Shown: in pieces, positions 375 through 16,611 of the stretch
How the letters are laid out: each line of letters begins with the position of its first letter
Position numbering within the stretch: the stretch's first letter is position 1
Source: Spirochaetales bacterium
Lineage (GTDB): Bacteria > Spirochaetota > Spirochaetia > DAHUYW01
Reading direction: 5' to 3'
DNA length: 25,285 nucleotides
NCBI GenBank assembly: GCA_027314665.1
Contig: DAHVAK010000194.1
Coordinates: forward strand, 1-25,285
Notes under the pieces: model-generated
Database searches by the model: none
What the model was told of the DNA's origin: nothing
Seen by the model: the letters and a program-made list of their open reading frames with translations, nothing else
Made by a program: the position numbers and the translations under genes

Positions 375-812
375 CTATGCCGATTCCAGCCACTTCAGGG
401 CTTCGTCGGGGTCCGTGAATACCTGTACGGTGATTCCCGCCTCGGCGTACTGCGCTATGAATTGTCGCATGTTCATCTTGCCGACGATATTCTGGGGGAG
501 GACGATCGCCCAGAACTTCCAGCCGGCCGCGGCGACACGGGGAAACCACTCCTTCTGCGCCCAACCAGCATCCTCGGTGCGCAGGGCGCTGTTGCCGCGG
601 TCGTCGGAGAGCCACTTCGTGGCGTTGTTGGCTTTCAGAACCTCGTAGCCGCGGTCGAGCACGTTCTTGAAGCTGTCGCCGAACATGAACTTCTTGAACT
701 GATGATGAACTATCTTCGCCTCCGGATGAAACCAAAGCGAAGCATTCTCGTTGCTGAATATCGTGATTGCAGACACCTCTGTGCCCCCTTCGAGAAGATG
801 TAGATGCGCCAC
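375..812 (-). CDS. Hypothetical protein, STAS/SpoIIAA-like (DUF3478-like) fold suspected
   Basis: 145-aa ORF with protein-like composition (W, K, F, N spread evenly). Its local GC (~55%) is lower than the surroundings. The overlapping + strand ORF 249-803 has an Arg/Gly/Leu-rich artefact-like composition. The pattern ...KWLSDDRGNSAL...WFPRVAAAGWKFWAIVLP...FIAQYAEAGITVQVFTDPDEALKWL resembles SpoIIAA-like STAS proteins. Confidence 0.45.
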   Translation of the reverse strand: MAHLHLLEGGTEVSAITIFSNENASLWFHPEAKIVHHQFKKFMFGDSFKNVLDRGYEVLKANNATKWLSDDRGNSALRTEDAGWAQKEWFPRVAAAGWKFWAIVLPQNIVGKMNMRQFIAQYAEAGITVQVFTDPDEALKWLESA

Positions 813-1073
813 CGCTGCCCGGTGCGCGGGGGGAATCGGGAAATGCCCCCGCGCCGCTCAGCCAGTTGGGCAATACGCGCAACTACCCGGCACTCTTTGA
901 AAACTGTGGATGAGTCAGACGACGAGCGAGCAACAACTTCGCAGCCCCGGACCGTACGGCGCCCAGTATCCACGTCCAGCCAGGCACCGCGAAGTGTACA
1001 CCACCGGCGCGCGGGCCGCAACCTGCTCTTTTTTTAAGGCCACTCGCCTGAGCTTGCCGTCTCGGCAGGCCGC

Positions 1074-2123
1074 GTGTTACCCTCGAAGCGGACAGTCTGG
1101 ATGGCAGAGCGCAAGCTCACAGACGAGCCGGATGAGCCCCCCAAGCCCCTCTCCGCAGGTCGAGGCGCTCGGGCCGCTCCCGGCGGGCGGCTTCTCTTTC
1201 GCGACTACCTCTTCGTCGACTGGGTGGTCCAAGGCTACATCGCCGCGGCGGGGCTCCTGGTGCTTGTTCTGCACGGGAGCTCCGTCCCGCGCTGGGAGCT
1301 CATCGTCGCCTCCCACGCGGCGGCCCTGGTCGCGGTCCACCTCCTCATTCGCTCGGCGGGGCTGCGTCCGCAGTCGCGCGCCCTTGACCTCCTTCGCAGC
1401 TTCTATCCGGTGTTGCTCTACATCGGCTTCTACAGCGAGATCGGGGCGATCGATCACATGCTTTTTCCCGGCTTTCTCGATCCGCTCTTCATCGGGCTCG
1501 ACGAGCGCATCTTCGGCTTTCAGCCCAGCCTTCTCTTCATGACCGCGCTTCCCTATCGCGCCGTGAGCGAGCTCCTGTATTCCGCGTACTTCTCCTACTA
1601 CCCGACGATCGCCGGAATCGGCGTGGCGCTTGTTCTCCGCGATCGGCATCAGTTCCTCCACTACCTCTCCACAGTCACCTTCACCTTCTGCGGGTGCTTT
1701 CTGTTCTTCGATCTGTTTCCGGTGATGGGCCCGCGCATCTTCTTCACGCAGGCGGCAGGCTACCGCCTGCCGAACGATCTCCTGCCTGCGGCACTTCCCG
1801 CGGTGCCCGCGGCGGTGAGCGGCGGCCCCTTCTTCGCGCTCATGGGATGGATCTACCGAAGCTTCGAGACCTCCGGGGCAGCCTTTCCGAGCGCTCACGT
1901 CGCGATCGCCCTTGCGACTCTCTGGTTTTCCTTCCTCTACCTCCGCCCGATCCGATGGCTCCACCTGTTGGTGGTGGTTCTCCTGTGCGTCTCGACGGTC
2001 TACTGCCGCTACCACTACGCCGTGGACGTGGCCGGAGGCGTTCTCGCTGCAGCGCTCCTCGTGCCGCTCGGGAGCCGGCTCTTTGCGCGCGGTTCGGCGC
2101 CCCGGAAGACTGAGCGGCGGTAG
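1074..2123 (+). CDS. PAP2-superfamily (phosphatidic acid phosphatase type 2-like) integral membrane protein
   Basis: Multiple predicted transmembrane segments. PAP2 signature motifs are present: ...PSAHVAIA... (PSGH-like) and ...YCRYHYAVDVAGG (SRxxxxxHxxxDV-like). The start is uncertain: GTG at 1074 or ATG at 1101, and neither has a strong SD. Confidence 0.6.
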   Translation: MLPSKRTVWMAERKLTDEPDEPPKPLSAGRGARAAPGGRLLFRDYLFVDWVVQGYIAAAGLLVLVLHGSSVPRWELIVASHAAALVAVHLLIRSAGLRPQSRALDLLRSFYPVLLYIGFYSEIGAIDHMLFPGFLDPLFIGLDERIFGFQPSLLFMTALPYRAVSELLYSAYFSYYPTIAGIGVALVLRDRHQFLHYLSTVTFTFCGCFLFFDLFPVMGPRIFFTQAAGYRLPNDLLPAALPAVPAAVSGGPFFALMGWIYRSFETSGAAFPSAHVAIALATLWFSFLYLRPIRWLHLLVVVLLCVSTVYCRYHYAVDVAGGVLAAALLVPLGSRLFARGSAPRKTERR

Positions 2124-2177
2124 CTCATGGACAGTCGGAGAGCCTGCGGACTACACTGTCGCGTTGGAGAGTTATCG

Positions 2178-2552
2178 ATGAAAAGAATCCCACGCCTTGC
2201 CCTTGCTGTCCTCCTGGCGCTCTCCCTCGGGGTGGGCGCCTACGGGCTCGACGGTGCGAGCGCACCCCTGGCCGACGGGATCTTCGCCGGGATGGGCGAG
2301 TACACTGAATATGGCTGGGTGCAGGTCGCCCTCGTGGTGTTGAACGGGAAGGTCTCGACCGTGAAGGTGCTTCAATATCCGAACGACATGGGTACCTCGC
2401 GAATGATCAACGGCAAGGCACTTCCTCGGCTTATTCGCGAAACCGTGCGGGCGCAGAGCGTGCGGATTCACTTCGTCTCCGGCGCGACCGTGACAAGCGA
2501 AGCCTTCGTTCGGTCCCTCACGGCCTCCTTCGCCGAAGCGCAGGGCCGATGA
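2178..2552 (+). CDS. Secreted/anchored FMN-binding domain protein (FMN_bind, NqrC/RnfG-like) with SGAT flavinylation motif
   Basis: MKRIPRLALAVLLALSLGVGAYG is a signal-peptide-like N-terminus. GGAGAG at 2166-2171 sits 6 nt before the ATG at 2178. ...HFVSGATVTSEAF carries the [S/T]GAT motif used by ApbE to attach FMN to a Thr. The stop overlaps the ApbE start (ATGA, 2549-2552). The alternative upstream ATG at 2127 is less likely. Confidence 0.6.
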   Translation: MKRIPRLALAVLLALSLGVGAYGLDGASAPLADGIFAGMGEYTEYGWVQVALVVLNGKVSTVKVLQYPNDMGTSRMINGKALPRLIRETVRAQSVRIHFVSGATVTSEAFVRSLTASFAEAQGR

Positions 2553-3382
2553 GGCAGGCGCGGCTCGGCGGCGCGATGGTCGCGGAGGAGGCGCTTGGGT
2601 TCGTGCGCACGGAGCTCGTCATGGGGTTTCCGGTCACGATCGCGGTCGCAAACCCGGACGGAGAGCCGAGCTCCCTTGCCTCTCGCACCGCATCCCGGCG
2701 CGAGATCGCGGCAGCGGTCGCGGCGGTCTACGATCACCTACGCGAGGTCGACGTGCGATTCAGCCCGTACCGAGCCACGAGCGAGGTGAGCAGGATCAAT
2801 GGCGGCGAGCTCCGCGAAGAGGGCTTCAGCCCCGAGATGAAACGGGTCCTGCGCCTGTGCGAAGAGACTAAGCGGGCCACCCGGGGCTACTTCGATCCGT
2901 GGCGGGGAGAAAGGCTCGATCCGAGCGGGCTCGTCAAGGGACTCGCCGTCTACGACGCCTCAGGCATCCTGCGCGATCGGGGTTTCGAAGACTTCTGCAT
3001 CGAAGCGGGCGGGGACATCGAAGCTCGCGGGCGATGCTCCGGGGGGGAGAAGTGGCGCATCGGAATCCGGAGTCCCTTCGATCCCCGAACCGTCGTAAAG
3101 GCGGTAGCGCTCGAGAATCGAGGAATCGCAACCTCGGGGCTCTACGCGCGCGGCGAGCACATCTACAACCCCCTCACGGGGAGGAACGCGACGGAGACCG
3201 CGAGCTTCACGGTGATCGGACCAAATCTCTTTGAGGCCGACCGCTTCGCGACCGCGGCGTTCGCCATGGGAAGGCGCGGCCTGGAGCTCATCCGGAACTC
3301 AAGCGATCTCGACGGCTACATGATCGAGCACGACGGAACCGCCACCTACACTGAAGGCTTCTTGAGGTACGTCACGGAGTGA
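2549..3382 (+). CDS. apbE: ApbE-family FAD:protein FMN transferase (flavin transferase)
   Basis: The N-terminal ...ELVMGFPVTIAV matches the MGTxVxI start of ApbE domains. Other family-typical stretches are ...RFSPYRATSEVSRIN..., ...GYFDP..., ...LVKGLAVYDAS..., ...IEAGGDI..., ...ALENRGIATSG...YNPLTG..., ...EADRFATAAFAMG. There is no recognisable signal peptide: the first 19 residues are hydrophilic. The start is coupled to the upstream gene (ATGA) and the stop to the downstream gene (GTGA). Confidence 0.75.
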   Translation: MRQARLGGAMVAEEALGFVRTELVMGFPVTIAVANPDGEPSSLASRTASRREIAAAVAAVYDHLREVDVRFSPYRATSEVSRINGGELREEGFSPEMKRVLRLCEETKRATRGYFDPWRGERLDPSGLVKGLAVYDASGILRDRGFEDFCIEAGGDIEARGRCSGGEKWRIGIRSPFDPRTVVKAVALENRGIATSGLYARGEHIYNPLTGRNATETASFTVIGPNLFEADRFATAAFAMGRRGLELIRNSSDLDGYMIEHDGTATYTEGFLRYVTE

Positions 3383-4917
3383 TCCGCCGCATCGATCGGC
3401 TGCTCGATCGCACCACCATGTATCGCCTTCTCCTCTTCTACCTGGTCTCGCTCCTGGGGCTCGGGCTCATCCTCGCTGCGGCCGGGGCGATCCGGATCTC
3501 CCCTGTCGCCCTCCTTTCCACTGTGCTTCTCTATCTCGCCGTCACCCTGGCTGCAAACTGGGGCTTCGCGCGACTCTTTCGCGTCGATGCGCATGCAGAG
3601 TCCACGATCATCACCGCCTTGATCTTGAGCCTTATCTCGGGTCCGGTTTTGGTATTCAGCGATCCGAGGCACGCGGGGTATCTTGCACTCGCGGGCCTCT
3701 TTGCGGTGGCATCGAAATACCTCATCGCGATCCGGCGCCACCACCTCTTCAATCCCGCGGCCTTCGGGATCCTTCTCACCGGGCTACTCTTCGGCGAGTA
3801 CTCGACCTGGTGGGTGGGCAACATCGCCCTGCTTCCGCTCGTCGTTGCCGGCGGGCTCCTCCTCCTTCGCAAGATCAATCGCTTTCGCATGGTAGGCCTC
3901 TTCGTCGCCTCGGCGGTTCTCTTTCTCTTCGCGCAGGGGATCCTTGAAGGTATTGGGGCGGCGACGGCCCTTTCGACGATCAGCTTCACTCTCCTGCGCT
4001 CTGAGCTGCCCTTTGCCGCCCTCGTCATGCTTACCGAGCCGCTCACCTCGCCGAAGGCCTTCTCGAGGCAGGTCCCCTATGCCGTGCTCACCGCCTTCTG
4101 TTTCCTGCCACGGCTCAACCTCTTCGGCTATGCGATCAGCCCCGAGGAGGCGCTCCTCATTGGGAATCTGTTTTCCCTCCTCGTGAGCCCGAGCTATCGG
4201 ATGGCGCTCCATCTGCGGGAGCGCCAAGAGATCGCCCCGAGCATTTTCGCCTTCACCTTCGAGCGACCGAGGGGCTTCCGGCATCGGGCAGGCCAGTACC
4301 TCGAATGGAGGCTGGCTCTGCCCAGAAGCGACGCCAGGGGGAATCGCCGTTTCTTCACCATCGCCTCCTCCCCGACCGAAAAGGAGCTCATGATCGTCCT
4401 GCGCATTCCCGCGGCGGCGAGCGCCTACAAGCGCGCCCTTCATGCCATGCGGCCCGGCGATCGCCTCCTCGCGGGCGAGCTTGCGGGAGATTTCGTCCTG
4501 CCGCGCGACCCGGCGATCCCCCTCGTGTTCATCGCCGGTGGGATCGGGATCACCCCCTTTCGAAGCATTTTCAAAGAGCTCCTCGATACCGGCGAGCGCC
4601 GCTCGATCGTCCTTTTTTTCCTGCACCTCAGGGGGGAGAGCCTCTTCGAGGAGCTCCTCGCGGAGGCAGAACAGAAGCTCGGGCTCTCGGTCGTCCACAT
4701 CCTCACCGACGCGCAGGGGACGTCGAAGGGGAGCTACGGGCGAATCGGGCAGCTGAACCGCCAGGCAATCGAGGAGAAGGTGAGCGACTACAGGAAGCGG
4801 CGCTTCTACCTCGCGGGCTCCCTCGAGATGGTGGAGGCGACGCGGAGCCTCCTCCGCGGTATGGGCGTGGCGGCGAGGCGCATCACGGCCGACGCCTTCC
4901 CCGGCTACCCTCGGTAG
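3379..4917 (+). CDS. Fusion protein: RnfD/NqrB-like polytopic membrane domain + ferredoxin-NADP reductase-like FAD/NAD(P)-binding domain
   Basis: The N-terminal ~260 aa are strongly hydrophobic with ...HHLFNPAAFGILL... (NPA motif as in RnfD/NqrB) and ...MLTEPLTSP... (like the RnfD TDPVTSP motif). The C-terminal ~200 aa have FNR-family motifs: RFFTIASSP (RxYSxxS FAD site), GGIGITPFRS (GGxGxxP NAD(P) site) and YLAGSLEMV (YxCGP-like). There is no 2Fe-2S ferredoxin segment. A GTG start at 3379 overlaps the ApbE stop. Confidence 0.65.
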   Translation: MIRRIDRLLDRTTMYRLLLFYLVSLLGLGLILAAAGAIRISPVALLSTVLLYLAVTLAANWGFARLFRVDAHAESTIITALILSLISGPVLVFSDPRHAGYLALAGLFAVASKYLIAIRRHHLFNPAAFGILLTGLLFGEYSTWWVGNIALLPLVVAGGLLLLRKINRFRMVGLFVASAVLFLFAQGILEGIGAATALSTISFTLLRSELPFAALVMLTEPLTSPKAFSRQVPYAVLTAFCFLPRLNLFGYAISPEEALLIGNLFSLLVSPSYRMALHLRERQEIAPSIFAFTFERPRGFRHRAGQYLEWRLALPRSDARGNRRFFTIASSPTEKELMIVLRIPAAASAYKRALHAMRPGDRLLAGELAGDFVLPRDPAIPLVFIAGGIGITPFRSIFKELLDTGERRSIVLFFLHLRGESLFEELLAEAEQKLGLSVVHILTDAQGTSKGSYGRIGQLNRQAIEEKVSDYRKRRFYLAGSLEMVEATRSLLRGMGVAARRITADAFPGYPR

Positions 4918-4947
4918 GGCCGGCGGCGTTCCGCCGCAGGCTGCGCA
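4918..4947. terminator. Short GC hairpin between convergent genes (candidate bidirectional terminator)
   Basis: GGCGGCG-TTC-CGCCGC gives a 6-bp stem and 3-nt loop at 4923-4937, in the 30-nt gap between the stop of the + gene (4917) and the stop of the - gene (4948). There is no U-run. Confidence 0.25.
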
Positions 4948-7701
4948 TCACCCGGGAGTCTCGCCCGCCCGATGAGCTCTCAGGCGCACCATCCACTTCA
5001 CAAGCTCGAGGACGGGCGAGACCGAGAAGGCGAGGGCGAGGATGATGAGGAGATCCGCAGGCGAGAGGGAAAAGGTCCCGAAGGGGGCGTGCAGGAAGGG
5101 TAGATAGACGATGAGGGCGAGCAGGAGCAGCTCCCAGAGGATGGCGAGGTTCAGCCACCGGTTCGCGAAGGGGTGGTCCATCACCGAGTGGTGGTCGGAG
5201 CGGAAGTTGAAGGCCTTGAAGAACTGGATGAGCACGAGGGAGACGAAGCTCATCGTCATTGCCTCGTGCACGGAACGTCCCGAGGCAAGGGCCCAGGCAA
5301 ACAGCCCAAGGTTCACCAGGGTAGACCAGATCCCGCCCGCGAGGATGAGGGTTACCACGGACGGCGTGAAGATCCCGCGCTTCGGGTCGCGCGGCTCCCG
5401 CCGCATGAGGTCCGCTTCGGGGGGGTCGACAGCGAGGGCAAGGGCGGGGAGGCCGTCGGTAGCCAGATTGACGTAGAGGATCTGGACCGCGCTCAGGGGC
5501 AAAGGCAGCCCCGCGAGAGTCGCCCCGGCCATCAGCCCGATCTCGCCGATGTTCGAGGAAAGAAGGTACATCAGGTACTTCTTGATGTTCCCGAAGACCC
5601 CGCGTCCCTCCTCCACTGCCGCGACGATCGAGGCGAAGTTGTCGTCGGTGAGGGTCATCGCCGCCGCTTCCTTCGAGACCTCGGTGCCCGTGATACCCAT
5701 CGCGACCCCGATGTCGGCCTTCTTCAGGGCAGGGGCATCGTTCACCCCGTCTCCGGTCATCGCGACGATCTTCCCGCGCTTCTGGAGGGCGGTGACGACC
5801 CGCAGCTTGTGGGCGGGGGAGACCCTGGCGTAGACTTCGATCCCCTCGACGGAGCGCTCGAGCTCCTCGTCGCTCATCGCCTCGAGCTGCGGTCCGGTCA
5901 CGACGCGCCCCCCGGCGAAGAGTCCGAGCTCCCGCGCGACGGCCTCGGCGGTGAGCGGATGGTCGCCGGTGATCATGACGGGCCTGATTCCCGCCTCGCG
6001 GCAGCGATCGATCGCCGGTCGGGCCTCCGGGCGAGGGGGGTCGATCATCCCCGCAAGGCCGAGGAAGGTCATGCCCTGTCCGGCCTCGGGGAGCCTCGCA
6101 GCGCTGCGGCTCGCGACCGCCAGCACCCGGAGGGCCTGCCCCGCCATCGCTCGCGCCTCCTCGAGAAAACACTCGCGCTCCATCCCGTCGAGCCTCCGCT
6201 CCTCCCCTCCGGCGAGGTAGCGATCGCAGGAGGCGAGGATCACCTCCGGAGCTCCCTTCGAGCAGGCGAGGCTCCCGCCGTCGCGCTGCCCGACGAGCAC
6301 GGTCATGCGCTTGGCTTCAGAGGTGAAGGGAACCTCGCCCAGGCGCGGAGCGGCGGCATCGAGCCTGTCCTTCGCCATGCCCGCCTTTGCAGCGGCCACC
6401 ACGAGGGCTCCCTCCGTCGGATCTCCGGTCACGACCCACGCTCCGCTCCCCTCTTCGCGCTCGATCCTCGCGTCTGAGGCGAGAACCGCAGCGCGCAGGA
6501 GCCGCCGAATGGGATGGTCGTCGCCCGCCTGAGCGATCCCCTCGTCCCGCCCCTCGCGCAGGAACTGTCCCGCAGGCTCGTAGCCTGCCCCGGTCACCTC
6601 GACCGAGATCCCCGGCGCAACGAGGCGACGGACGGTCATCTCGTCCCGCGTGAGAGTACCGGTCTTGTCCGTGCAGATGTAGGAGGTGCTCCCGAGGGTC
6701 TCGACCGCGGGAAGCCTTCGCACAAGGGCGTGGCGCCGCACCATCCGTTGGACCCCCAGGGCGAGGGAGATGGTCACGACCGCAGGAAGGGCCTCGGGGA
6801 CGACCGCCACGGCGAGCGCGATGCCGAAGACCAGCATCTCGATCACCGGCTGCCCGCGGACGAGCCCGAGGACGACGATGACCGCGACCACGCCGAGCGC
6901 GATCCGCGCGAGCTGCCCCCCGAGGCGGTCGAGATTGCGCTGGAGGGGAGTCTTCGCGACCTCGATCGTTTGGAGCATCCGGGCAATCCCGCCGAGCTCG
7001 GTCGACATCCCGGTAGCAACGACGAGGGCGCGTCCACGCCCGAAGAGGGCGGCGGTCCCGGCGAAAAGCATGTTCGTGCGGTCGCCGAGGGGGATCTCTT
7101 GATCGGGAAGGGAAGCGCTTCCCTTGTCGACCGGGAGCGACTCCCCGGTGAGGGCCGCCTCGTCGATCGCGAGGTTCGCGCTCTCGAGGAGGCGCGCGTC
7201 GGCGGGAATTCGGTCGCCCGCCCGCACGAGGAGGAGATCGCCGGGGACCACCTCGCGCGCCGGCAGTCGCTGCTCGCGCCCCCCGCGAACGACGGTCGCA
7301 AGAGGGGCTGCCATCTGACGAAGCGCCGTAAGGGCGCGCTCGGCGCGGAACTCCTGGAGAAAGCCGAGCAGGACGGCGAACAGGACGATGACGGCGATGG
7401 CAATCCCTTCGATCTCATGGCCGAGAAGGGCGGAGAGAGCGGTCGCCGCAAGCAGGATGAGGATGAGGAGGTTCTTGAACTGCGCGAGCAGGATAGGCCA
7501 GGGCGAGAGCGACCGGGAGGCTTGAAGCTCATTGGGTCCGTGGGAGGCGAGGCGCCGGGCAGCCTCCGCCGGATCGAGACCGCCCGCCCCCGACCCGAGG
7601 CGGGCGGCGATCTCTTCGCTCGAAAGAGCGTGCCACCGAGGGGAAGCGCTGCTCGGAGCAGCCTTCACGCCGATTGGGCTCAGGCTACGCTCTTGGGTCA
7701 T
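4948..7701 (-). CDS. Cation-translocating P-type ATPase, P2-type (Ca2+-ATPase-like)
   Basis: 917 aa with ICTDKTGTLT (phosphorylation site), PEGLPAVVT, CSKGAPE, MIDPPRPEA, MITGDHPLTA and AMTGDGVNDAPALKKADIGVAMG. There are about ten transmembrane segments, and the N-terminal ...LDPAEAARRLASHGPNEL... is typical of PMCA/SERCA-type pumps. Confidence 0.8.
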   Translation of the reverse strand: MTQERSLSPIGVKAAPSSASPRWHALSSEEIAARLGSGAGGLDPAEAARRLASHGPNELQASRSLSPWPILLAQFKNLLILILLAATALSALLGHEIEGIAIAVIVLFAVLLGFLQEFRAERALTALRQMAAPLATVVRGGREQRLPAREVVPGDLLLVRAGDRIPADARLLESANLAIDEAALTGESLPVDKGSASLPDQEIPLGDRTNMLFAGTAALFGRGRALVVATGMSTELGGIARMLQTIEVAKTPLQRNLDRLGGQLARIALGVVAVIVVLGLVRGQPVIEMLVFGIALAVAVVPEALPAVVTISLALGVQRMVRRHALVRRLPAVETLGSTSYICTDKTGTLTRDEMTVRRLVAPGISVEVTGAGYEPAGQFLREGRDEGIAQAGDDHPIRRLLRAAVLASDARIEREEGSGAWVVTGDPTEGALVVAAAKAGMAKDRLDAAAPRLGEVPFTSEAKRMTVLVGQRDGGSLACSKGAPEVILASCDRYLAGGEERRLDGMERECFLEEARAMAGQALRVLAVASRSAARLPEAGQGMTFLGLAGMIDPPRPEARPAIDRCREAGIRPVMITGDHPLTAEAVARELGLFAGGRVVTGPQLEAMSDEELERSVEGIEVYARVSPAHKLRVVTALQKRGKIVAMTGDGVNDAPALKKADIGVAMGITGTEVSKEAAAMTLTDDNFASIVAAVEEGRGVFGNIKKYLMYLLSSNIGEIGLMAGATLAGLPLPLSAVQILYVNLATDGLPALALAVDPPEADLMRREPRDPKRGIFTPSVVTLILAGGIWSTLVNLGLFAWALASGRSVHEAMTMSFVSLVLIQFFKAFNFRSDHHSVMDHPFANRWLNLAILWELLLLALIVYLPFLHAPFGTFSLSPADLLIILALAFSVSPVLELVKWMVRLRAHRAGETPG

Positions 7702-8052: not shown

Positions 8053-9516
8053 ATGAGACGGATCGTTTTCGTGGAGCCCAAGTCGCCGAACCTGCATATC
8101 TTCTCGCGCTTCGCGCTCCCGAGGCTCGGAAGCATCATTCTCGCCACCATGATGCGGGAGCGGGGGTGGGAGGCGTCGGTCGTCGCGGAGGATCTCGCCT
8201 TCCTCGACCTCGACCGCCTTCGCTCGGTCGATCTGGTGGGGATCTCGACCATTACCTCAACCGCCCCGCGGGCCTACGCGATAGCCGACTCCCTTCGGGA
8301 GCGCAACCTTACGGTCATCATAGGCGGGCCCCACGTCACCGAGCTTCCCGACGAGGCCCTGGAGCACGCCGATTTCGTCATCCGGGGCGAAGGGGAAGAG
8401 CCCCTCATGCGCTTCATCGACGCTTGGGAGCGGGGTCGTGATTTCTCGCAGGTGCCGAGCCTCTCCTACCGCAGGGGGGCAAGCGCGGTGCACAATCCCC
8501 TTGCCCCGGCCATCACCCATCTCGATGCGCTTCCCTACCCCGATTTCGCGCTCCTCGAGGGCGGGCTGCGGACGGTCGCCGGGATGCGGACTATTCCCGT
8601 ACAGACCTCTCGGGGCTGTCCCTTCGACTGCTCATTCTGCTCGGTGACCGGCATGTTCGGGCGCGCCTACCGACATCGCTCGACTGCGAACATCATCGAG
8701 GACCTCGCCCGCTACGATGAGCCGGGCAACTTCATCTTTTTCTACGATGACAATTTCACCGCGAGCCCGGCTCGGGCGAAGGAGCTGCTTCGGGCGATGA
8801 TCGACCGAGGCTTCGCCTTCCGGTGGTCGACCCAGGTCCGAGCGGACGTTGCGCGCGACGAGGAGCTGGTCGCGCTCATGAGGCAGGCGGGGTGCCACAC
8901 GGTGTTCATCGGTTTCGAATCGGTCAACCCGGAGAGCCTCGCGGGGATGAACAAGCGCCAGAGCGTCGACGACATCGGCGAGGCGATTCGGGTGCTTCGC
9001 CGCCATCGGATCAACATCCACGGGATGTTCGTCCACGGCTTCGACGAAGACGATTGGTCTGCGGTGGAGCGAAGCGTTCGCTTCGCGCGGCGGGCCCGGC
9101 TCACCTCCTGCCAGTTTCTCATTCTCACCCCCCTGCCGGGGACCCGATTCTACCGCGAGATGATCGATTCCCGTCGCCTGCTCGGCCGCGACTGGTCGCT
9201 CTACGACAGCCACCACGTGGTCTTCGCACCGAAGCGGATGAGCGCCCCCGAGCTGCAGTGGGCCCAGATCTACAGCCACAAGCGCATCTATTCCGCAGGC
9301 GCGACGGTGGGACGTCTCCTGCGCGGGAATCTGGTGAGCGTGGTGCTTTCGATCTACGCGCGCCGGCTCAACCGCGCCTGGCAGCGGCGCAACCAATCCT
9401 ACCTTACGGCGGTCGGACTGATCGCCTCGAGCCTGCGGGAGCTGCGTCGGGGCAATCTCAGCGAGCGGATTCGGAGGCGGCTTGCGGGTCCTGAGGTCTC
9501 CTCGACCGGCGGCTGA
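8053..9516 (+). CDS. B12-binding-domain radical SAM protein (class B rSAM), function unknown
   Basis: N-terminal Rossmann-like B12-binding region (...VDLVGISTITSTA...VIIGGPHVTELP...). Then ...TSRGCPFDCSFCSV, a CxxxCxxC radical-SAM cluster motif, followed by a TIM-barrel-like region. The ribosome-binding site is GAAGGAGG at 8041-8048. Confidence 0.75.
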   Translation: MRRIVFVEPKSPNLHIFSRFALPRLGSIILATMMRERGWEASVVAEDLAFLDLDRLRSVDLVGISTITSTAPRAYAIADSLRERNLTVIIGGPHVTELPDEALEHADFVIRGEGEEPLMRFIDAWERGRDFSQVPSLSYRRGASAVHNPLAPAITHLDALPYPDFALLEGGLRTVAGMRTIPVQTSRGCPFDCSFCSVTGMFGRAYRHRSTANIIEDLARYDEPGNFIFFYDDNFTASPARAKELLRAMIDRGFAFRWSTQVRADVARDEELVALMRQAGCHTVFIGFESVNPESLAGMNKRQSVDDIGEAIRVLRRHRINIHGMFVHGFDEDDWSAVERSVRFARRARLTSCQFLILTPLPGTRFYREMIDSRRLLGRDWSLYDSHHVVFAPKRMSAPELQWAQIYSHKRIYSAGATVGRLLRGNLVSVVLSIYARRLNRAWQRRNQSYLTAVGLIASSLRELRRGNLSERIRRRLAGPEVSSTGG

Positions 9517-11652: not shown

Positions 11653-12981
11653 CTACCGGTTATAGGAAAAGTAGATGATGATTGGGCTCGGCCCGACCTC
11701 GGCTACCACGCCGTCGGTGACGGTCGAGGGCGGCGCGTAGGTGAGCTGCAGCCCTCCGTTGCGAAAGGCGTAGAGAAAGCTCACCGCCGAGCGGCCGCTT
11801 GAGCCGCCGAAGCGGAAGGTGATCACCCCGTCGTAGCTCGCGGAAAGCGCGTCGCTAAGGAACAGGGGGAAATCGACCGTTCCTTCGCCGCTCACCTCCG
11901 CGGGGATCACGTCGGGCTGAAGCCTCGAAAAACCGGTCCAGGAAAAGGTCATCTCGGAGGAGAAGGAGATCCTTCCGTAGTAGTTGCTGCGAAAGCTGCC
12001 CTTGTCCAGAAAGCTCCCGTAGAGGAGCAGCCGCCGGTTGTGCTCCTTCTCGATGGCGAGCTTGACCTCGTCGTTGCTCATGGCGATGTACTGCTCGCTC
12101 ACCTGTTTGCCCTCCGGCCCCAGATAGTGAAGCTGGATCTGGCTTGGCGAAAGGAGGGACATCTGCACGGGGGTCCCAACGAAGGCATATTGGTTCTCGC
12201 CGAGATCCTTGATCGCAGAGTAGCGGTAGCTCGCGCTCAACTTGGGAGTCACGATGCGAAAAGAGTGCGTGCTCGGATCGGGGAAAAAGCCGAACTCTGG
12301 GGCGAACTTTGCGAGGTCGATGCGCCCGGTGTCGATCATGTTCTGGAAGGAGGCGGGTCTGAAGGTCTGGCTCAAGGCCGCATCGATCGATGAACCCTGC
12401 GAGCCCGCCGTCTCGCCTCGTCCGAGGACGAGGTCGAAGTTCTGGCAGTAGCCGAGCACTCCGTCGCCGGTGAGCACCTCGTACCAGGTGGTGCCTTCGG
12501 CGCCGCTTGAGCCGGGAAGATTCTCGCGGGAAATCACCTTGACCTCTTGGTTCGCCCGCATGCGGTAGACCCGCTGCGCGGTGAGGGAGGGGCTCTGATA
12601 GAGCACGATGCCGGCGCTGCGCGAGCGCGCCGTCTCGGTCACGTAGGGGGCGTAGGCTGCGGCGAAATTGATCGCGTCCCGTTCGTGCCGGAAAGGAGAG
12701 ACCCTCCAGTTGTCGATCTCGAGGTTGCCCTTGCCGTGCGGCAGCGCGATGAGGTAGGTGCTCGAAAGCTGCGACTGCGACCGGATGCGAACGATCTCTC
12801 CGGTCTTCACGGACGCCTCGTTTTTCGACCACAGGACGACCCCGTAGCTTGGCCGTGAAGAGCAGGAGACGGTGCTGAGGGCGAGCCCGAGAACAAGCAC
12901 CCCGAGGACGCCGAGGCTCGCCAAGCGGCGGTTTACCGAGAATCTTCTCACGTTAGTATTCCTCTTCCCACTATACGACAA
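11653..12981 (-). CDS. Lipoprotein with SH3b-like domains, function unknown
   Basis: The N-terminus ...LGVLGVLVLGLALSTVSCSS has a lipobox-like L-S-T-V-S-C. Two SH3-like segments are present (YGVVLWSKNEASVKTGEIV..., ...TTWYEVLTGDGVLGYCQNFDLV). The gene sits 9 nt from the ABC-F gene and 8 nt from the upstream gene. Confidence 0.55.
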   Translation of the reverse strand: MSYSGKRNTNVRRFSVNRRLASLGVLGVLVLGLALSTVSCSSRPSYGVVLWSKNEASVKTGEIVRIRSQSQLSSTYLIALPHGKGNLEIDNWRVSPFRHERDAINFAAAYAPYVTETARSRSAGIVLYQSPSLTAQRVYRMRANQEVKVISRENLPGSSGAEGTTWYEVLTGDGVLGYCQNFDLVLGRGETAGSQGSSIDAALSQTFRPASFQNMIDTGRIDLAKFAPEFGFFPDPSTHSFRIVTPKLSASYRYSAIKDLGENQYAFVGTPVQMSLLSPSQIQLHYLGPEGKQVSEQYIAMSNDEVKLAIEKEHNRRLLLYGSFLDKGSFRSNYYGRISFSSEMTFSWTGFSRLQPDVIPAEVSGEGTVDFPLFLSDALSASYDGVITFRFGGSSGRSAVSFLYAFRNGGLQLTYAPPSTVTDGVVAEVGPSPIIIYFSYNR

Positions 12982-12989
12982 AAACCCCG

Positions 12990-13895
12990 TCAGGGGGCGA
13001 CGGTCACGGGGGGAAGATCCGCAATGATGAGGATTCTTCCCTCCGTGATCAGCTTGATATTGTCCGGGCTCGCGAGCAGGCGGCGCGCGGCCTGATCCGA
13101 GATGATCACGTCGGTATCGTTCTTGCCGAAGATCCCGGTCGCGACGGTCTGAAAGGGCACCGCGCCGATCCGCGCGAGAAAGGGCCCGAGGGAGGTCGAG
13201 TCGGTGTAGGCCGCCAGCCCTTGCGCCCGCAGAACCGAGGGCTCGACGCTCTTTGCCGAGGCGACGAGATTCATGCTCTCGTCCCAGATCCGAGGAAACA
13301 GGCAGGGGGCGAGATGCGCGCTGCGGTTCTCGCCGTGAACCGGGAGGGCTCCCTTGGCGTAGATCACGATCCCGCTGAACGGCGTCGTGGGGACGAAGCC
13401 AAGGGGAGGCAGCGGCGGGTTCGCTCGGCTCTGATGGACGAAGATCCTGCCGAGGTCGGGGAAGAGGGGGATCCGGTAGTGAACCACCAGATGCGTCAGG
13501 TCGCGGGAGAGAACGGCGAAGCGTTCGTCGCCCGGGGTGAGGATGCCCATGACTGCCGACATCGTCGCCGGATCGGATTGGGCGAGGCTCCCGACGGTGT
13601 CGAAGGAGTCGACCGGGATCGGAAAGAGCGTGGAGGCAAGCATCTGCGGAGCGGACTCCTCAATAATCCGCTGCCCCTCGGCGCGAGCGCTCGGCAGAAC
13701 CACGGAAAAGCCGGTGAGGTCGATCCGCGCGTCGATCGCCACGAAGCCCTGCCGCCAGTCGACGCTGCTCGTGTAGGTCGGGACCGGGGCGGGGGGCGGC
13801 GCGCCGTCGGGCGAGCCGCCGTCCGTCTGGGCAAGAAGGGAGCTCGGCGCGAGGAGCGCGCAGGCAAGAACCGAGAGGAGGATCGCTCGCTTCAC
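12990..13895 (-). CDS. Exported hypothetical protein (signal peptide)
   Basis: MKRAILLSVLACALLAPSSLLAQT is signal-peptide-like, and I recognise no catalytic motif. Its start overlaps the stop of the upstream MltD-like gene (ATGA at 13892-13895). Confidence 0.5.
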   Translation of the reverse strand: MKRAILLSVLACALLAPSSLLAQTDGGSPDGAPPPAPVPTYTSSVDWRQGFVAIDARIDLTGFSVVLPSARAEGQRIIEESAPQMLASTLFPIPVDSFDTVGSLAQSDPATMSAVMGILTPGDERFAVLSRDLTHLVVHYRIPLFPDLGRIFVHQSRANPPLPPLGFVPTTPFSGIVIYAKGALPVHGENRSAHLAPCLFPRIWDESMNLVASAKSVEPSVLRAQGLAAYTDSTSLGPFLARIGAVPFQTVATGIFGKNDTDVIISDQAARRLLASPDNIKLITEGRILIIADLPPVTVAP

Positions 13896-15406
13896 GGCAT
13901 GCTCGCCTCGAGGAGGCCGCTGGACTGCGGAACGTGAAGTCGCGTGCCGATCGAGAGGATCCCGGTAAGGGAAAGCCCGTTCGCGCGCGCGAGCGCCTCC
14001 GGGGTGGTGCCGTAGCGCCGGGAGATGCTCCAGAGGGTATCCCCCGTCTCGACGCGATAGGTGCCGGTGAAGGGCCCGATCGGGCCGGACGACTGGGACG
14101 CCGCCACCGCGGAGACTGCCGGGCGCTTGTAGGGTGGCACATCCTTGACGCCGGGGATGACCAGGCGCGTGCCGATCTGGAGGAAGCGAGGCTGCACGCT
14201 GGGATTATACTGCAGAATCATCGAGACCGGAACACCGTAGTAGCGGGCAAGATCGTAGAGGGTGTCCCCGGAGCCGACCGTGTAGATGTAGAAGCGCATG
14301 AGCTTGAACTGCTGGTCCCTGAGGGTGGTCGTGACCGCGGCGAAATCCTGCTTCGGAACCTTGAGGTAGAAGGGCATCCCGCCCGGCGGGGGCGTGATGT
14401 CGTAGCGCAGCTCGGCGTTTCCCTCCAGAAGCGAGTCGAGGTTCACCCCTGCGTCGCGCGCGAGAATGCGAAGGTCGACCGCCTGGTTGAGCCTGATGCG
14501 CTCCCACTCGACGGGAGGATCCCAGTTGAGCGGGATGCCGTAGCGGCCCGCGTAGCTCGCGACCGCGGCGATGGCGAGGAACTTCGGGACGTACTGCTTG
14601 GTTTCGTAGGGAAGATACCCGTCGGCGGCCAGGGTCCAGAAGTTCTTGATCCCGGTCTTCTGGGTGAGGTAGATCATCGTGCCCAGACCGCTGTTGTACG
14701 CGGCGAGCGCAAGGAGCCAATCCCCGAGGACCTGATAGTTGTATTCCAGCTTTTGCAGGGAGGTGTTGGTCGCCTTCCAGAAATCGAAGCGGTCGTCCTC
14801 CCACTCGTCGATGCGCATCGTCGAGGGGTCGATGCTGTTCGTCATGAGCTGCCACAGCCCCGCCGCTCCGGTGTAGGAGACCGCATAGGGATCGAAGGTC
14901 GATTCGACGATCGGAAGGTAGGCCAGCTCCGGAGGCATGTGGTAGTGCTGGATGCGCTGCGCGATGAAATCGAGAAAGGGCCGGGCCCGCTGCAGCACGT
15001 AGCTGAGCCACTGGATTCCTTCCGGGGAGGTGTAGTAGGAGAGGTAATACTTCAAGAGCCCGTTCATCGGAACGTCGAGGCTGAAGACCTCCGGTCCCGC
15101 GTGGGTCTGGCGAGGGGCGAGGGCTCCCCCGGGCGGAAAGCTGCCGCTCGCCTCCTGAAGCTCCTCCTCGGAGGGGGGCAGGTTTCCGCCTCCCGAGGGG
15201 GTGTAGCTCGCAAGCTGATAGTCGGCGAAGTCTGCCGCCTCGCCCGCGATCGCCCAGGGATGGTCGCCGAGGGCCTGCGGGGGGCGGGTTCTCTCGTTGC
15301 GGTCATGCCCTTCCGGAAGCGGCTGAGCAAACGCAGGGGCGGCGGCCATGAGGAGCGCGAGAGCGCTCGCCACCAGCCGCGACAAGGGCTTCAGCGAAGT
15401 CGTCAT
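13892..15406 (-). CDS. Lytic murein transglycosylase (SLT domain) with two C-terminal LysM domains, MltD-like
   Basis: The signal peptide is ...LALLMAAAPAFAQP. The SLT motif is ...LPIVESTFDPYAVSYTGAAGLWQLM (ES...GLWQ). The two LysM repeats are YTVGSGDTLYDLARYYGVPVSMILQYN...GTRLVIP and YRVETGDTLWSISRRYGTTPEALARANGL...GTRLHVP. The ATG at 15406 is preferred over the TTG at 15409. Confidence 0.8.
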   Translation of the reverse strand: MTTSLKPLSRLVASALALLMAAAPAFAQPLPEGHDRNERTRPPQALGDHPWAIAGEAADFADYQLASYTPSGGGNLPPSEEELQEASGSFPPGGALAPRQTHAGPEVFSLDVPMNGLLKYYLSYYTSPEGIQWLSYVLQRARPFLDFIAQRIQHYHMPPELAYLPIVESTFDPYAVSYTGAAGLWQLMTNSIDPSTMRIDEWEDDRFDFWKATNTSLQKLEYNYQVLGDWLLALAAYNSGLGTMIYLTQKTGIKNFWTLAADGYLPYETKQYVPKFLAIAAVASYAGRYGIPLNWDPPVEWERIRLNQAVDLRILARDAGVNLDSLLEGNAELRYDITPPPGGMPFYLKVPKQDFAAVTTTLRDQQFKLMRFYIYTVGSGDTLYDLARYYGVPVSMILQYNPSVQPRFLQIGTRLVIPGVKDVPPYKRPAVSAVAASQSSGPIGPFTGTYRVETGDTLWSISRRYGTTPEALARANGLSLTGILSIGTRLHVPQSSGLLEASMP

Positions 15407-15422
15407 CAATGTTGGTCACCAC

Positions 15423-15441: not shown

Positions 15442-16512
15442 TCAATGATTTGATTGCGGGCCGGAGAACGGCTTGTCTCCAAAGTAGATGCCCGCCCACT
15501 CCCACTGACCCTGCACGTTGGGATCAGCGGGAAAGTTGATTCTACGAAAATAGAGGTACCAGGTCTCGATTCGATAGGTCCAGCCGCCGGTGCGCAGGTA
15601 GGCCTCCTGGGAGTTCGCGTCGAGGGTGTCGGAGACCCAGACTGAAGGGTTCATGAAGACTCCGAAGTCGGTGAGGAACTCCGGATCATCGGGGGTCGGG
15701 GTGTCGCCCGACTCCCAGGAGCGGACGAAGAAACCGACCTTCGCCTGATAATGCAGGAGAAGCGAGACGTTCTGGTTGGCAATGGCCGATCGAATGGCGG
15801 TTACCAAGTCGGAAAGGCTCGGCATTGCCCAGTTCTTCTTGGGGTACTCGTAGAAGTTGACGAAGTAGGTTACCTCGTTTCGGGCCTCGGGGTGGCCCGG
15901 GATCGGGACGTCCGGGTAGCTCAAGTAGCTCTTGAAGGCTTGGAGCTCCAGGTCCCACTCGTGCAGCTCACCGTAGGTCTCCCCGAGGGAATAGTAGGTG
16001 GGCCCCATTTGAATCTTGTCCCCGTAGCGCGCGATGAGGTCCTTGTAGTAACCGACTCGCGCTTGCGGGTCCTTGGTGATCTTGATGAGCCGCATGAGGC
16101 ACAGGTAGTGCAGCGACTTTCCGCGGACCATGAGATCGGGGTAGTCTGCCACGATGCGGTCGTAGTAGGCCGCGGCGAAGGGAAAGGCGCCCACCCCGTC
16201 GTAGTCCTGCGCCACGACGTAGAGGTAGTAGGCGTCATAGGGGTCTTTCGGGTGTCTGCGCACGTAGTCGGTGAGAAAGAGGTTGAGCCGATTGGCGTCT
16301 CCGTGAGCTCGCAGGGCGGCGGTGATCTGCTGGACGTAGACGAAGCGGGTTTCGTAGGAGGTGTGGCCATCGTCGACGCCCGCGAGCATCTGGGTGAGCT
16401 CCTGGCGCTGTACGTGACCGCCGACCACAAAGTAGGACTTGGAGAAGCTGCAGCTCGCAAGTAGCACAACGGCCAGCGAAAGCGAGAGGAAAGCACAGAT
16501 AGCCGTTTTCAT
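15442..16512 (-). CDS. Lipoprotein, function unknown
   Basis: From the ATG at 16512 the product begins MKTAICAFLSLSLAVVLLASCSF (lipobox LLASC). The product has an aromatic-rich composition with Y/W/F clusters. The much longer upstream extension in the ORF track (to 17490) overlaps icd and is discounted. Local GC is somewhat lower than in the neighbouring genes. Confidence 0.55.
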   Translation of the reverse strand: MKTAICAFLSLSLAVVLLASCSFSKSYFVVGGHVQRQELTQMLAGVDDGHTSYETRFVYVQQITAALRAHGDANRLNLFLTDYVRRHPKDPYDAYYLYVVAQDYDGVGAFPFAAAYYDRIVADYPDLMVRGKSLHYLCLMRLIKITKDPQARVGYYKDLIARYGDKIQMGPTYYSLGETYGELHEWDLELQAFKSYLSYPDVPIPGHPEARNEVTYFVNFYEYPKKNWAMPSLSDLVTAIRSAIANQNVSLLLHYQAKVGFFVRSWESGDTPTPDDPEFLTDFGVFMNPSVWVSDTLDANSQEAYLRTGGWTYRIETWYLYFRRINFPADPNVQGQWEWAGIYFGDKPFSGPQSNH

Positions 16513-16611
16513 ACGCCGACGGATACTACCACGGAGCCCCTCGGTTGACAACACCGGAACGCGACCCAGCGCCGGCGGCGGTTGGCAGGGCGCTGACAAA
16601 GCGAGTGACCC

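What the first reader, a model, noticed from the sequence alone, without database searches (positions are those of the whole stretch)
2127..4917. Compact, translationally coupled flavinylation-dependent electron-transfer module: FMN_bind (SGAT) - ApbE - RnfD/NqrB-like::FNR fusion
Three genes are joined by ATGA/GTGA overlaps. The first is an exported FMN-binding-domain protein with the SGAT flavinylation motif. The second is an ApbE flavin transferase. The third has an RnfD/NqrB-like membrane domain (NPA and TEPLTSP motifs) fused directly to an FNR-type FAD/NAD(P)H-binding domain (RFFTIAS, GGIGITPF) and lacks the 2Fe-2S ferredoxin found in NqrF. In canonical Na+-NQR and Rnf complexes these roles are spread over five or six subunits. 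Here a single polypeptide could take electrons from NAD(P)H and pass them across the membrane through covalently bound FMN to an extracytosolic flavoprotein. That would make it a minimal NQR/RNF-like or extracellular-electron-transfer-like system, and I am not certain this exact fusion architecture has been characterised. A PAP2 membrane protein lies immediately upstream (stop at 2123) and may be co-transcribed.
Basis: partly seen in the sequence, partly recalled or inferred. Interest (0 to 1): 0.75.

Follow-up and report, generated by a model that had tools for sequence, protein, structure and literature searches.

The report
Known NQR/RNF-like flavin electron-export cassette
The three overlapping genes are real and form a compact NAD(P)H-to-outside electron-transfer cassette, but this kind of cassette was already described from genomes in 2021 and 2024 as the "NQR/RNF-like system", so this is a new, somewhat divergent member and not a new kind of system.

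Summary
Three same-strand genes joined by ATGA and GTGA overlaps encode a membrane-anchored FMN_bind protein with an SGAT site, an ApbE flavin transferase, and a 512-aa fusion of an RnfD/NqrB-fold membrane domain to an FNR-type FAD/NAD(P)H domain. The fusion has no Fe-S module. It is not an assembly artefact: more than 120 full-length relatives exist, and the gene order FMN_bind-ApbE-fusion is kept in 61 of 80 genomes examined.

Méheust et al. 2021 (eLife) defined this architecture as the "NQR/RNF-like system". Huang et al. 2024 (mSystems) modelled it. No biochemistry was found in the library searched.

Three corrections:
- The RnfD-like domain has lost the roughly 76-residue outer loop that carries the flavinylated threonine. 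The only covalent-FMN site is therefore on the small partner protein.
- The upstream PAP2 gene is not a conserved partner (0 of 80 loci).
- The first gene most likely starts at 2178, not 2127.

One unexplained point: the ApbE here, and in all 66 related cassettes checked, has no signal peptide, yet its presumed substrate is exported. Neither paper comments on this in the text searched. It raises the question of where flavinylation takes place.

The parts
2178..2552 (+). FMN_bind (NqrC/RnfG-like) subunit, 124 aa. It has an N-terminal signal-anchor (MKRIPR-LALAVLLALSLGVGAYG) followed by the FMN-binding domain. The longest ORF starts at 2127, but 2178 is the likely start.
   Evidence: Pfam PF04205, 24.0 bits (cut-off 22). 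An N-in/C-out anchor is seen in 65 of 69 homologues. GGAG lies 8 nt upstream of 2178. The homologue in L084 is called at 124 aa with the same N-terminus type.
2478..2489 (+). SGAT flavinylation motif (S101-G-A-T104 of the 124-aa protein). T104 is the predicted FMN-phosphoryl acceptor.
   Evidence: Read from the sequence. The motif is conserved as V-D-I/V-I/V-S-G-A-T-x-T-S in most cassette homologues. It aligns with the TGAT of E. coli RsxG. The usual Asp three residues upstream is His here and in the 65% relative.
2549..3382 (+). ApbE-family FAD:protein FMN transferase, 277 aa, with no signal peptide or lipobox.
   Evidence: Pfam PF02424, 136.2 bits. It is 31% identical to E. coli Ftp/ApbE over 157 aa, E 2e-17. 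E. coli has the lipoprotein leader MEISFTRVALLAAALFFVGC; the window protein has no hydrophobic leader before the first strand, ELVMGFPVTIAV. The longest possible ORF starts at 2549.
3379..4194 (+). RnfD/NqrB-like membrane domain of the fusion (aa 1-272; about 10 transmembrane helices; N-terminus cytoplasmic).
3751..3759 (+). N125-P126-A127 of the FNPAA motif shared with RnfD/NqrB.
   Evidence: N125 and P126 are invariant in 56 homologues. The motif aligns with FNPAM of RsxD.
3793..3822 (+). Short outer loop (aa 139-148, GEYSTWWVGN). It replaces the roughly 76-aa RnfD loop that carries the flavinylated Thr187.
   Evidence: hhalign places RsxD residues about 141-217, including GISQAT187, as an insertion between window aa 141 and 142.
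4033..4053 (+). TEPLTSP motif (aa 219-225), the family counterpart of RnfD TDPVTAS.
   Evidence: E220 and P221 are invariant; T223 and P225 are at least 90% conserved. Alignment to RsxD.
4198..4917 (+). FNR-type FAD/NAD(P)H-binding domain of the fusion (aa 274-512, then the stop codon).
4345..4371 (+). RRFFTIASS (aa 323-331), the R-x-Y/F-S/T flavin-binding motif of the FNR family.
   Evidence: R323, R324 and S330 are invariant. That this is the flavin-binding motif rests on established knowledge of the FNR family.
4537..4560 (+). GGIGITPF (aa 387-394), the nucleotide-binding glycine motif.
   Evidence: G387, G388, I389, G390, T392 and P393 are invariant. The motif lies at the start of the PF00175 match.
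2128..2157 (+). Promoter-like site (TGGACA-18 nt-TACACT) in the gap between the PAP2 stop and the likely FMN_bind start. This is weak evidence only.
   Evidence: It is the single consensus match in 800-5200, against 0.5 expected by chance.

Best explanation
This is a member of the 'NQR/RNF-like' flavinylation-associated electron-transfer systems. It is a self-contained three-gene cassette.

Proposed mechanism:
- The 512-aa protein sits in the cytoplasmic membrane with both ends inside.
- Its C-terminal FNR-type domain takes a hydride from NAD(P)H onto a flavin.
- Electrons then cross the membrane through the RnfD/NqrB-fold domain, probably through a non-covalently bound flavin, as riboflavin is bound in NqrB.
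- They reach FMN that ApbE has attached covalently to Thr104 (SGAT) of the small membrane-anchored FMN_bind subunit on the outer face.
- The RnfD-like domain has lost its own flavinylated loop. The partner's tethered FMN is thought to occupy that vacated pocket and then hand electrons to an unidentified extracytosolic acceptor. Ferric iron, a soluble flavin or quinone, or another redox protein are candidates.

Shown here: the domain identities and folds, the loss of the RnfD flavinylation loop, the absence of Fe-S, the conservation of the cassette, and the topology signals.

Inferred: every electron-transfer step, the identity of the intramembrane cofactor, the donor (NADH versus NADPH), the acceptor, and whether ions are moved.
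For: - Domains and folds.
- Homology to RnfD with all its signature motifs, and deletion of the Thr187 loop.
- The fusion is a conserved full-length family. There are 120 listed relatives of about 505-515 aa at 40-65% identity. The N-terminal domain alone finds 1219 50%-identity cluster representatives at E<=1e-3, and most of the 150 listed are about 500 aa long.
- At least 397 genome loci were found. The best 80 come from Spirochaetota, Chloroflexota, Patescibacteria, Alphaproteobacteria and Actinomycetota.
- Gene order FMN_bind-ApbE-fusion holds in 61 of 80 loci. Four of the 19 exceptions begin with the fusion at the contig end.
- The ApbE stop overlaps the fusion start in 34 of 63 loci.
- The same overlapping cassette with different flanks is seen in the closest relatives.
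- The partner protein has an N-in/C-out anchor in 65 of 69 cases and a lipobox in actinobacterial and some other members, so its domain is outside.
- Loop charges of the fusion put the N-terminus and the FNR domain inside, and the shortened loop outside.
- The published model of the same family gives the same pathway: PMC8238504 section 13 and PMC11334425 section 9.
Against: - No experiment on any member was found in the library searched.
- The window protein misses the Pfam PF03116 cut-off (23.1 versus 27.7 bits). It therefore fails the letter of the published operational definition, although relatives at 40-55% identity pass it.
- The cassette's ApbE is leaderless in 66 of 66 loci and in the window, while its presumed substrate is exported. 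This does not fit a simple extracytosolic flavinylation scheme.
- The Asp usually found three residues before the SGAT serine is His here.
- No acceptor gene is linked to the cassette. The flanks vary between genomes.
Confidence: 0.7

Rival explanations
1. An inward-facing enzyme, or one matured in the cytoplasm. Because the cassette ApbE is cytosolic, the FMN_bind protein is flavinylated in the cytoplasm. Then one of two things happens. Either the domain stays on the cytoplasmic side and relays electrons from the FNR domain into the NqrB-like domain and on to membrane quinone, making a minimal NAD(P)H:quinone oxidoreductase. Or the chain is modified while unfolded and only then exported.
For: - ApbE starts directly at its first beta strand in 66 of 66 cassettes and in the window, with no room for a leader.
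- A leaderless ApbE in Klebsiella pneumoniae is documented to flavinylate a cytoplasmic target (review PMC12052999 section 6).
- In Na+-NQR, NqrB carries the riboflavin that is the last cofactor before ubiquinone (PMC12052999 section 12).
- No second ApbE is present in the 25-kb window.
Against: - The partner's anchor follows the positive-inside rule for N-in/C-out: mean K+R is 2.1 before the helix and 1.0 after it. The window protein has 3 before and 0 after.
- Several members carry lipoboxes, which mark exported lipoproteins.
- The deleted RnfD loop lies on the outer face, which is where a partner FMN would dock.
- Only 3 of 69 partners have an RR pair that could suggest Tat export of a folded, pre-flavinylated domain.
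- A second, exported ApbE elsewhere in these genomes was not excluded.
Confidence: 0.15
2. A dedicated assimilatory ferric or flavin reductase. The cassette works as in the main model, but its specific job is to reduce extracellular Fe(III) or free flavin for uptake.
For: - Méheust et al. report that 6 of 127 clusters lie next to a VIT1 ferrous-iron transporter.
- The FNR domain's best curated match is NAD(P)H-flavin reductase Fre.
Against: - No iron-related gene is next to the cassette in the window. The flanks are a PAP2 protein and a P2-type cation ATPase.
- No iron-related family appeared among the recurrent neighbours in 80 loci. Those neighbours are two-component systems and MacB-type ABC transporters.
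- Fre and ferric reductases are ordinary members of the FNR fold, so the similarity is not specific.
Confidence: 0.1
3. An artefact or remnant. Either a frameshift or misassembly joined an rnfD-like gene to a separate reductase gene, or the cassette is a decaying piece of an Rnf/Nqr operon.
For: Only the sub-threshold Pfam score of the RnfD-like domain.
Against: - There are hundreds of full-length fusions of the same length at 40-65% identity from five phyla.
- Residues are invariant across both domains and across the junction.
- The whole chain gives a confident single-chain model, pLDDT 88 and pTM 0.77.
- The gene order is conserved.
Confidence: 0.01

Closest known systems
NQR/RNF-like flavinylation-associated system (Méheust et al. 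2021 eLife, PMC8238504; Huang et al. 2024 mSystems, PMC11334425; modelled representative from Ktedonobacter racemifer)
   Same: - The same three components: an FMN_bind subunit homologous to NqrC/RnfG, an ApbE, and an NqrB/RnfD-like membrane domain fused to a PF00175 NAD-binding domain.
- The same loss of the RnfD/NqrB flavinylation threonine.
- Relatives of the window protein from Ktedonobacteria, Patescibacteria and Actinomycetota are 36-43% identical over the full length.
   Different: - The window protein and its closest relatives score below the PF03116 cut-off, so the published Pfam-based definition would miss them.
- Its closest genomic relatives are Spirochaetota MAGs (50-55% identity). 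The 2021 paper describes the family as primarily Actinobacteria and the candidate phyla radiation.
- The Asp before SGAT is replaced by His.
Na+-NQR (NqrABCDEF) of Vibrio (PDB 7xk3, 8a1t)
   Same: - An NqrC-like FMN_bind partner with a Thr acceptor.
- Maturation depends on ApbE.
   Different: - No NqrA, NqrD or NqrE.
- No 2Fe-2S domain.
- No covalent FMN site in the NqrB-like domain.
- The NqrB-like and NqrF-like parts are one polypeptide.
- Electron flow is presumed to run one way, outward, instead of the semicircular path to quinone.
- Ion pumping is unknown.
Rnf complex (RnfABCDGE; PDB 8ahx, 7zc6; E. coli RsxD/RsxG used here for alignment)
   Same: - Shared motifs FNPA, GG..L..RK and (F)F..TDP/TEP.T.
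- An RnfG-like partner.
   Different: - No RnfA, RnfB, RnfC or RnfE.
- No ferredoxin-side Fe-S subunits.
- The roughly 76-aa loop with Thr187 is deleted.
- A fused FNR domain replaces RnfC as the NAD(P)H site.
MsrQ-like / NOX-like ferric-reductase-domain proteins fused to FAD/NAD domains, in ApbE + FMN_bind clusters (Méheust et al. 2021, section 10)
   Same: The same logic and the same accessory genes: a cytosolic PF00175-type domain, a transmembrane electron conduit, and an extracytosolic flavinylated FMN_bind protein.
   Different: The conduit there is a di-haem cytochrome b (PF01794). Here it is an RnfD/NqrB-fold domain with no haem-binding family hit.
Cytoplasmic ApbE of Klebsiella pneumoniae serving a soluble NADH:fumarate reductase (reviewed in PMC12052999)
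   Same: An ApbE without a signal peptide.
   Different: In Klebsiella the target FMN_bind domain is cytoplasmic. Here the target carries an export or anchor signal.

Membership tests
NQR/RNF-like system (operational definition of Méheust et al. 2021) | The gene cluster contains ApbE and/or an FMN_bind gene, and at least one of them has a signal peptide or lipidation site. | tested here: met
   ApbE (136 bits) and FMN_bind (24 bits) lie directly upstream of the fusion and overlap it in series. FMN_bind has an MKRIPR + hydrophobic signal-anchor.
NQR/RNF-like system (operational definition of Méheust et al. 2021) | [quoted passage not shown] | tested here: met
   [not shown]
NQR/RNF-like system (operational definition of Méheust et al. 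2021) | C-terminal cytosolic NAD-binding domain PF00175 on the same polypeptide. | tested here: met
   PF00175 scores 40.9 bits (cut-off 22) at aa 384-489. The fusion is conserved at full length in 56 aligned homologues.
NQR/RNF-like system (feature added by Huang et al. 2024) | The flavinylated Thr of NqrB/RnfD is not conserved in the membrane domain. | tested here: met
   The RsxD loop containing GISQAT187 aligns to a gap between window aa 141 and 142. There is no [ST][GSA]A[ST] motif in the fusion.
NQR/RNF-like system | NAD(P)H-driven electron transfer to the extracytosolic covalently bound FMN. | not testable with these tools
   This needs biochemistry. No experimental report was found.
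Canonical Na+-NQR | Six subunits NqrA-F, including NqrD/E and an NqrF with a 2Fe-2S ferredoxin domain. | tested here: not met
   The flanking genes are a PAP2 protein and a P-type ATPase. No other Nqr/Rnf family hit was found among the window ORFs scanned. The fusion has one Cys and no Fer2 hit.
Canonical Na+-NQR / Rnf | Covalent FMN on the NqrB/RnfD subunit (Thr236 / Thr187). | tested here: not met
   The loop is deleted.
Canonical Rnf | RnfA, RnfB, RnfC and RnfE subunits encoded alongside RnfD and RnfG. | tested here: not met
   None is present in the window. None recurs among the neighbours in 80 related loci.
ApbE flavin transferase family | ApbE fold and sequence family. | tested here: met
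   PF02424, 136.2 bits. 31% identity to E. coli Ftp/ApbE over the C-terminal half, E 2e-17, including the GGD, TSG and H-x-x-x-P-x-TG stretches.
ApbE flavin transferase family (typical extracytosolic form) | N-terminal signal peptide or lipoprotein leader. | tested here: not met
   The longest ORF begins 24 residues before the first strand and has no hydrophobic segment. The same holds in 66 of 66 cassette homologues. The E. coli control has the leader ending in FFVGC.
FMN_bind / NqrC-RnfG-like flavinylation substrate | An FMN_bind domain with an [S/T]GA[S/T] acceptor motif and an export or anchor signal. | tested here: met
   PF04205, 24 bits (cut-off 22). SGAT at nt 2478-2489. Anchor present. 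The Asp usually upstream of the motif is His. Actual flavinylation was not tested.
FNR superfamily (plant-type ferredoxin-NADP reductase fold) | A two-domain FAD/NAD(P)H fold with the R-x-Y/F-S/T and G-x-G-x-x-P motifs. | tested here: met
   [not shown]
MsrQ-like / NOX-type ferric reductase fusions | A di-haem ferric-reductase transmembrane domain (PF01794). | tested here: not met
   No PF01794 hit. The only related hit is a weak NAD_binding_6 match on the cytosolic domain. The membrane domain has the RnfD fold.

The most novel reading that the evidence does not exclude
In this whole family the flavin transferase works in the cytoplasm, because ApbE is leaderless in every cassette examined. 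Covalent FMN would then be installed on the partner protein before it crosses the membrane, or on a partner that in fact faces inward. Either outcome would be new. The first would mean export of a pre-flavinylated chain and no need for FAD export, which would suit the tiny Patescibacteria genomes that carry the cassette. The second would mean that the published 'extracytosolic electron transfer' model has the wrong topology for this family, and that the cassette is a minimal inward-facing NAD(P)H:quinone-type oxidoreductase.
Probability: 0.25. Interest if true: 0.6.

Novelty: new member of a known kind. Interest (0 to 1): 0.3.

Why it matters
The cassette is the smallest known relative of the Na+-NQR and Rnf respiratory machines: two structural proteins plus a maturation enzyme. 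It is common in Patescibacteria and other poorly understood lineages that have few ways of disposing of reducing equivalents. This instance adds little to what is published. It mainly shows that the family extends to Spirochaetota-like, high-GC organisms, and that a Pfam-threshold definition undercounts it. Here at least 397 genome loci were found, against the 127 clusters first reported.

The leaderless ApbE is the one point that could matter. It turns 'where is the FMN attached, and how does it get outside?' into a direct and inexpensive experimental question. The family is still uncharacterised biochemically, so any measured donor, acceptor or ion coupling would be new.

Tried and rejected
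- A single-sequence search of the PDB with the membrane domain alone found nothing relevant (best hit was an unrelated Doc protein, E 0.61). Homology to RnfD/NqrB needed the fold search and a profile comparison.
- The full-length profile search of the PDB was dominated by the FNR domain.
- PAP2 as a co-functioning partner is rejected: 0 of 80 loci. The P-type ATPase is also rejected: 4 of 80 loci.
- Apparent FMN_bind-ApbE fused ORFs in L002 and L015 are nested stop-to-stop frames in high-GC DNA. They have no start codon before the ApbE domain, so they are not fusions.
- Several 'conserved neighbour' clusters are antisense ORFs overlapping the cassette itself, so I ignored them.
- I looked for a second, cytosol-facing flavinylation site in the fusion. 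There is no SGAT-like motif. The only family-specific conserved Ser/Thr in a cytoplasmic segment is T13, in an R-x-T context that does not resemble the ApbE motif. I did not pursue this further.
- I looked for a twin-arginine signal that would explain export of a folded, pre-flavinylated partner. Only 3 of 69 partners have one.
- The sheet of Méheust et al. supplementary file 1 that lists signal-peptide calls for NQR/RNF-like clusters is truncated in the held copy. I could not check the authors' own calls for ApbE.
- The organism of the window was not identified. The identical protein is known only from a Logan assembly with no name attached.


Full report
**1. What is in the sequence**

The DNA shows ATGA at 2549-2552 and GTGA at 3379-3382, so each stop codon overlaps the next start codon.

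Pfam gives:
- FMN_bind, 24.0 bits (cut-off 22), for the first ORF.
- ApbE, 136.2 bits, for the second.
- NAD_binding_1, 40.9 bits, at aa 384-489 of the third.
- A sub-threshold NQR2_RnfD_RnfE match, 23.1 bits against a cut-off of 27.7, at aa 146-267 of the third.

NCBIfam places the C-terminal half among FNR-type reductases. The best match is NAD(P)H-flavin reductase, E 7.4e-21. Upstream lies a PAP2 protein (1074..2123). Downstream and convergent lies a P2-type cation ATPase (4948..7701, − strand).

**2. Is the fusion real, and is the N-terminal half RnfD-like?**

The fusion is real.
- The 512-aa protein has 120 listed relatives of almost the same length (about 505-515 aa) at 40-65% identity. 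Many of them carry both PF00175 and PF03116.
- Fifty-six of them align with invariant residues in both halves.
- The N-terminal 272 residues alone find 1219 cluster representatives at E<=1e-3 and 667 at E<=1e-10 in 1.84 billion proteins. Most of the 150 listed are about 500 aa long.

A frameshift or misassembly is therefore excluded.

**3. What the membrane domain has lost**

In that alignment about 76 residues of RsxD have no counterpart. They include GISQAT, whose Thr is residue 187, the position flavinylated in RnfD. They fall between window residues 141 and 142, where the window has only the short loop GEYSTWWVGN.
- The fusion contains no [ST][GSA]A[ST] motif.
- It has a single cysteine, so it has neither its own covalent-FMN site nor an Fe-S cluster.
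- Loop charges put the arginine-rich N-terminus and the RR and RK..R loops inside, and the shortened loop outside. This places the FNR domain in the cytoplasm, as its substrate requires.

**4. The partner and the transferase**

The FMN_bind protein most likely starts at ATG 2178. The evidence is MKRIPR followed by a 17-residue hydrophobic helix, GGAG 8 nt upstream, homologues that begin 'MKK + helix', and a 124-aa gene call for the partner of the 65% relative. A promoter-like match sits in the 54-nt gap after PAP2, but this is weak evidence.

Its SGAT motif (nt 2478-2489) is conserved across the family as VD(I/V)(I/V)SGATxTS. In the window and its nearest relative the Asp is His.

Across 69 homologues the anchor has more K+R before the helix than after it (2.1 versus 1.0). 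Actinobacterial and some other members have lipoboxes. The domain is therefore predicted to lie outside the membrane, like NqrC and RnfG.

The ApbE is a normal family member in its catalytic half (31% identity to E. coli Ftp/ApbE, E 2e-17).

**5. Conservation of the cassette**

A scan of one genome per species found at least 397 loci. The best 80 come from Spirochaetota MAGs (closest, 50-55%), Chloroflexota including Ktedonobacteria, many Patescibacteria, Mesorhizobium and Kaistia, and Microbacteriaceae and Cellulomonas.

Iterated profile searches of all ORFs in these loci gave the following.
- The order FMN_bind-ApbE-fusion holds in 61 of 80. Four of the 19 exceptions begin with the fusion at the contig end.
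- The ApbE stop overlaps the fusion start in 34 of 63.
- PAP2 occurs in none of the loci, and the P-type ATPase in four.
- The nearest relatives carry the same overlapping cassette in quite different surroundings.
- The recurrent neighbours are two-component regulators (about 16-20 loci) and MacB-type ABC transporters (about 20 loci). No obvious electron acceptor recurs.
- The rest of the window holds no other Nqr/Rnf subunit and no second ApbE.

**6. Comparison with what is known**

This architecture is already in the literature.
- Méheust et al. 2021 (PMC8238504) define an 'NQR/RNF-like system' as a flavinylation-associated cluster encoding a PF03116 + PF00175 fusion. They report 127 clusters, mainly in Actinobacteria and the candidate phyla radiation. 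[quoted passage not shown]
- Huang et al. 2024 (PMC10979944 and PMC11334425) modelled the Ktedonobacter racemifer complex. They noted that the NqrB/RnfD flavinylation site is not conserved, and suggested that the partner's tethered FMN reaches the vacated flavin pocket.

My independent results (the deleted loop, the topology, the conserved cassette) agree with both papers. No biochemical study of any member turned up.

The window's cassette is thus a new member of a known, still uncharacterised kind. It is slightly off the published definition, because it and its closest relatives fall under the PF03116 threshold.

**7. How it most likely works**

- Shown: the parts, their folds, the orientation signals, and the loss of the internal flavinylation site.
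- Inferred from the Na+-NQR and Rnf structures and the published model: NAD(P)H reduces a flavin on the FNR domain. Electrons cross through the RnfD-fold domain, probably through a non-covalent flavin equivalent to the riboflavin of NqrB. They arrive at FMN covalently bound to Thr104 of the partner on the outer face, and then pass to an unknown acceptor.
- Open: donor preference, the acceptor, and any ion coupling.

**8. The unexplained point**

The window's ApbE cannot have a signal peptide. Its longest ORF begins 24 residues before the first beta strand, and those residues are not hydrophobic. E. coli ApbE, used as a control, starts with a lipoprotein leader ending in FFVGC. The same holds in all 66 cassette ApbEs examined, which begin M-K-E/Q-T-R-L-I-M-G-M-P-I-T-V or similar.

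Leaderless ApbEs are known, but the documented case serves a cytoplasmic target (K. pneumoniae; PMC12052999 section 6). Neither paper on this family mentions the issue in the text I could search.

Possible readings are:
- flavinylation of the unfolded chain before export;
- an unrecognised export route for the enzyme;
- a second, exported ApbE elsewhere in these genomes;
- a partner domain that is really cytoplasmic.

Twin-arginine motifs are rare (3 of 69), and I found no alternative cytosolic acceptor site in the fusion. I could not scan whole genomes for other ApbEs.

**9. Verdict**

Novelty is 'new member of a known kind', and interest is modest. The leaderless transferase is the one aspect worth an experiment.

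Noticed in passing
window 2549-3382; loci L001-L080 (ApbE ORFs listed): The cassette ApbE lacks any signal peptide or lipobox in the window and in 66 of 66 related cassettes. Its presumed substrate has an export anchor or lipobox. The two papers on the family do not discuss this in the text searched.
   Followed up: partly
L082 2771-4508; about 16-20 of loci L001-L080: An OmpR-type response regulator and a HisKA sensor kinase recur next to the cassette in unrelated phyla. MacB/FtsE-type ABC ATPases recur in about 20 loci. This suggests regulated expression linked to the envelope. The window itself has a MacB-like pair (ABC ATPase 21996-22676, FtsX permease 22673-24001), but it lies 17 kb away.
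   Followed up: partly
L041 4946-5952: One Acidiferrales MAG has two tandem FMN_bind genes, both with anchors and SGAT motifs, upstream of the fusion. No ApbE was detected between them.
   Followed up: no
L079 (Cellulomonas MAG), FMN_bind ORF 4420-5088: The partner protein begins MAHTTRRRTLGL...LAAC. This looks like a twin-arginine lipoprotein signal, which would allow export of an already flavinylated, folded domain. Only 3 of 69 partners have an RR pair.
   Followed up: partly
window 2469-2471 (His three residues before the SGAT serine): The Asp normally found upstream of the flavinylation motif (VDxxSGAT) is His in the window and in its 65% relative (L084). It is Asn in L082 and Ser in L001. 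This subclade may therefore have an altered ApbE recognition motif.
   Followed up: partly
window 15442-17490 (−) versus 16846-18054 (+): A 682-aa ORF with no Pfam hit overlaps a strong isocitrate/isopropylmalate dehydrogenase gene on the other strand (314 bits). Part of the long ORF is therefore probably a high-GC antisense artefact. Many other long antisense ORFs in this 65% GC window look the same.
   Followed up: no
window 8053-9516 (+): A B12-binding radical SAM protein (PF02310 + PF04055) lies beyond the P-type ATPase. No link to the cassette was seen.
   Followed up: no
window 11653-15409 (−): A run of cell-wall-related genes: an SH3_3 protein, a 301-aa ORF with no family, and a LysM + SLT lytic transglycosylase. 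A LiaF-like membrane protein lies at 18068-18607.
   Followed up: no
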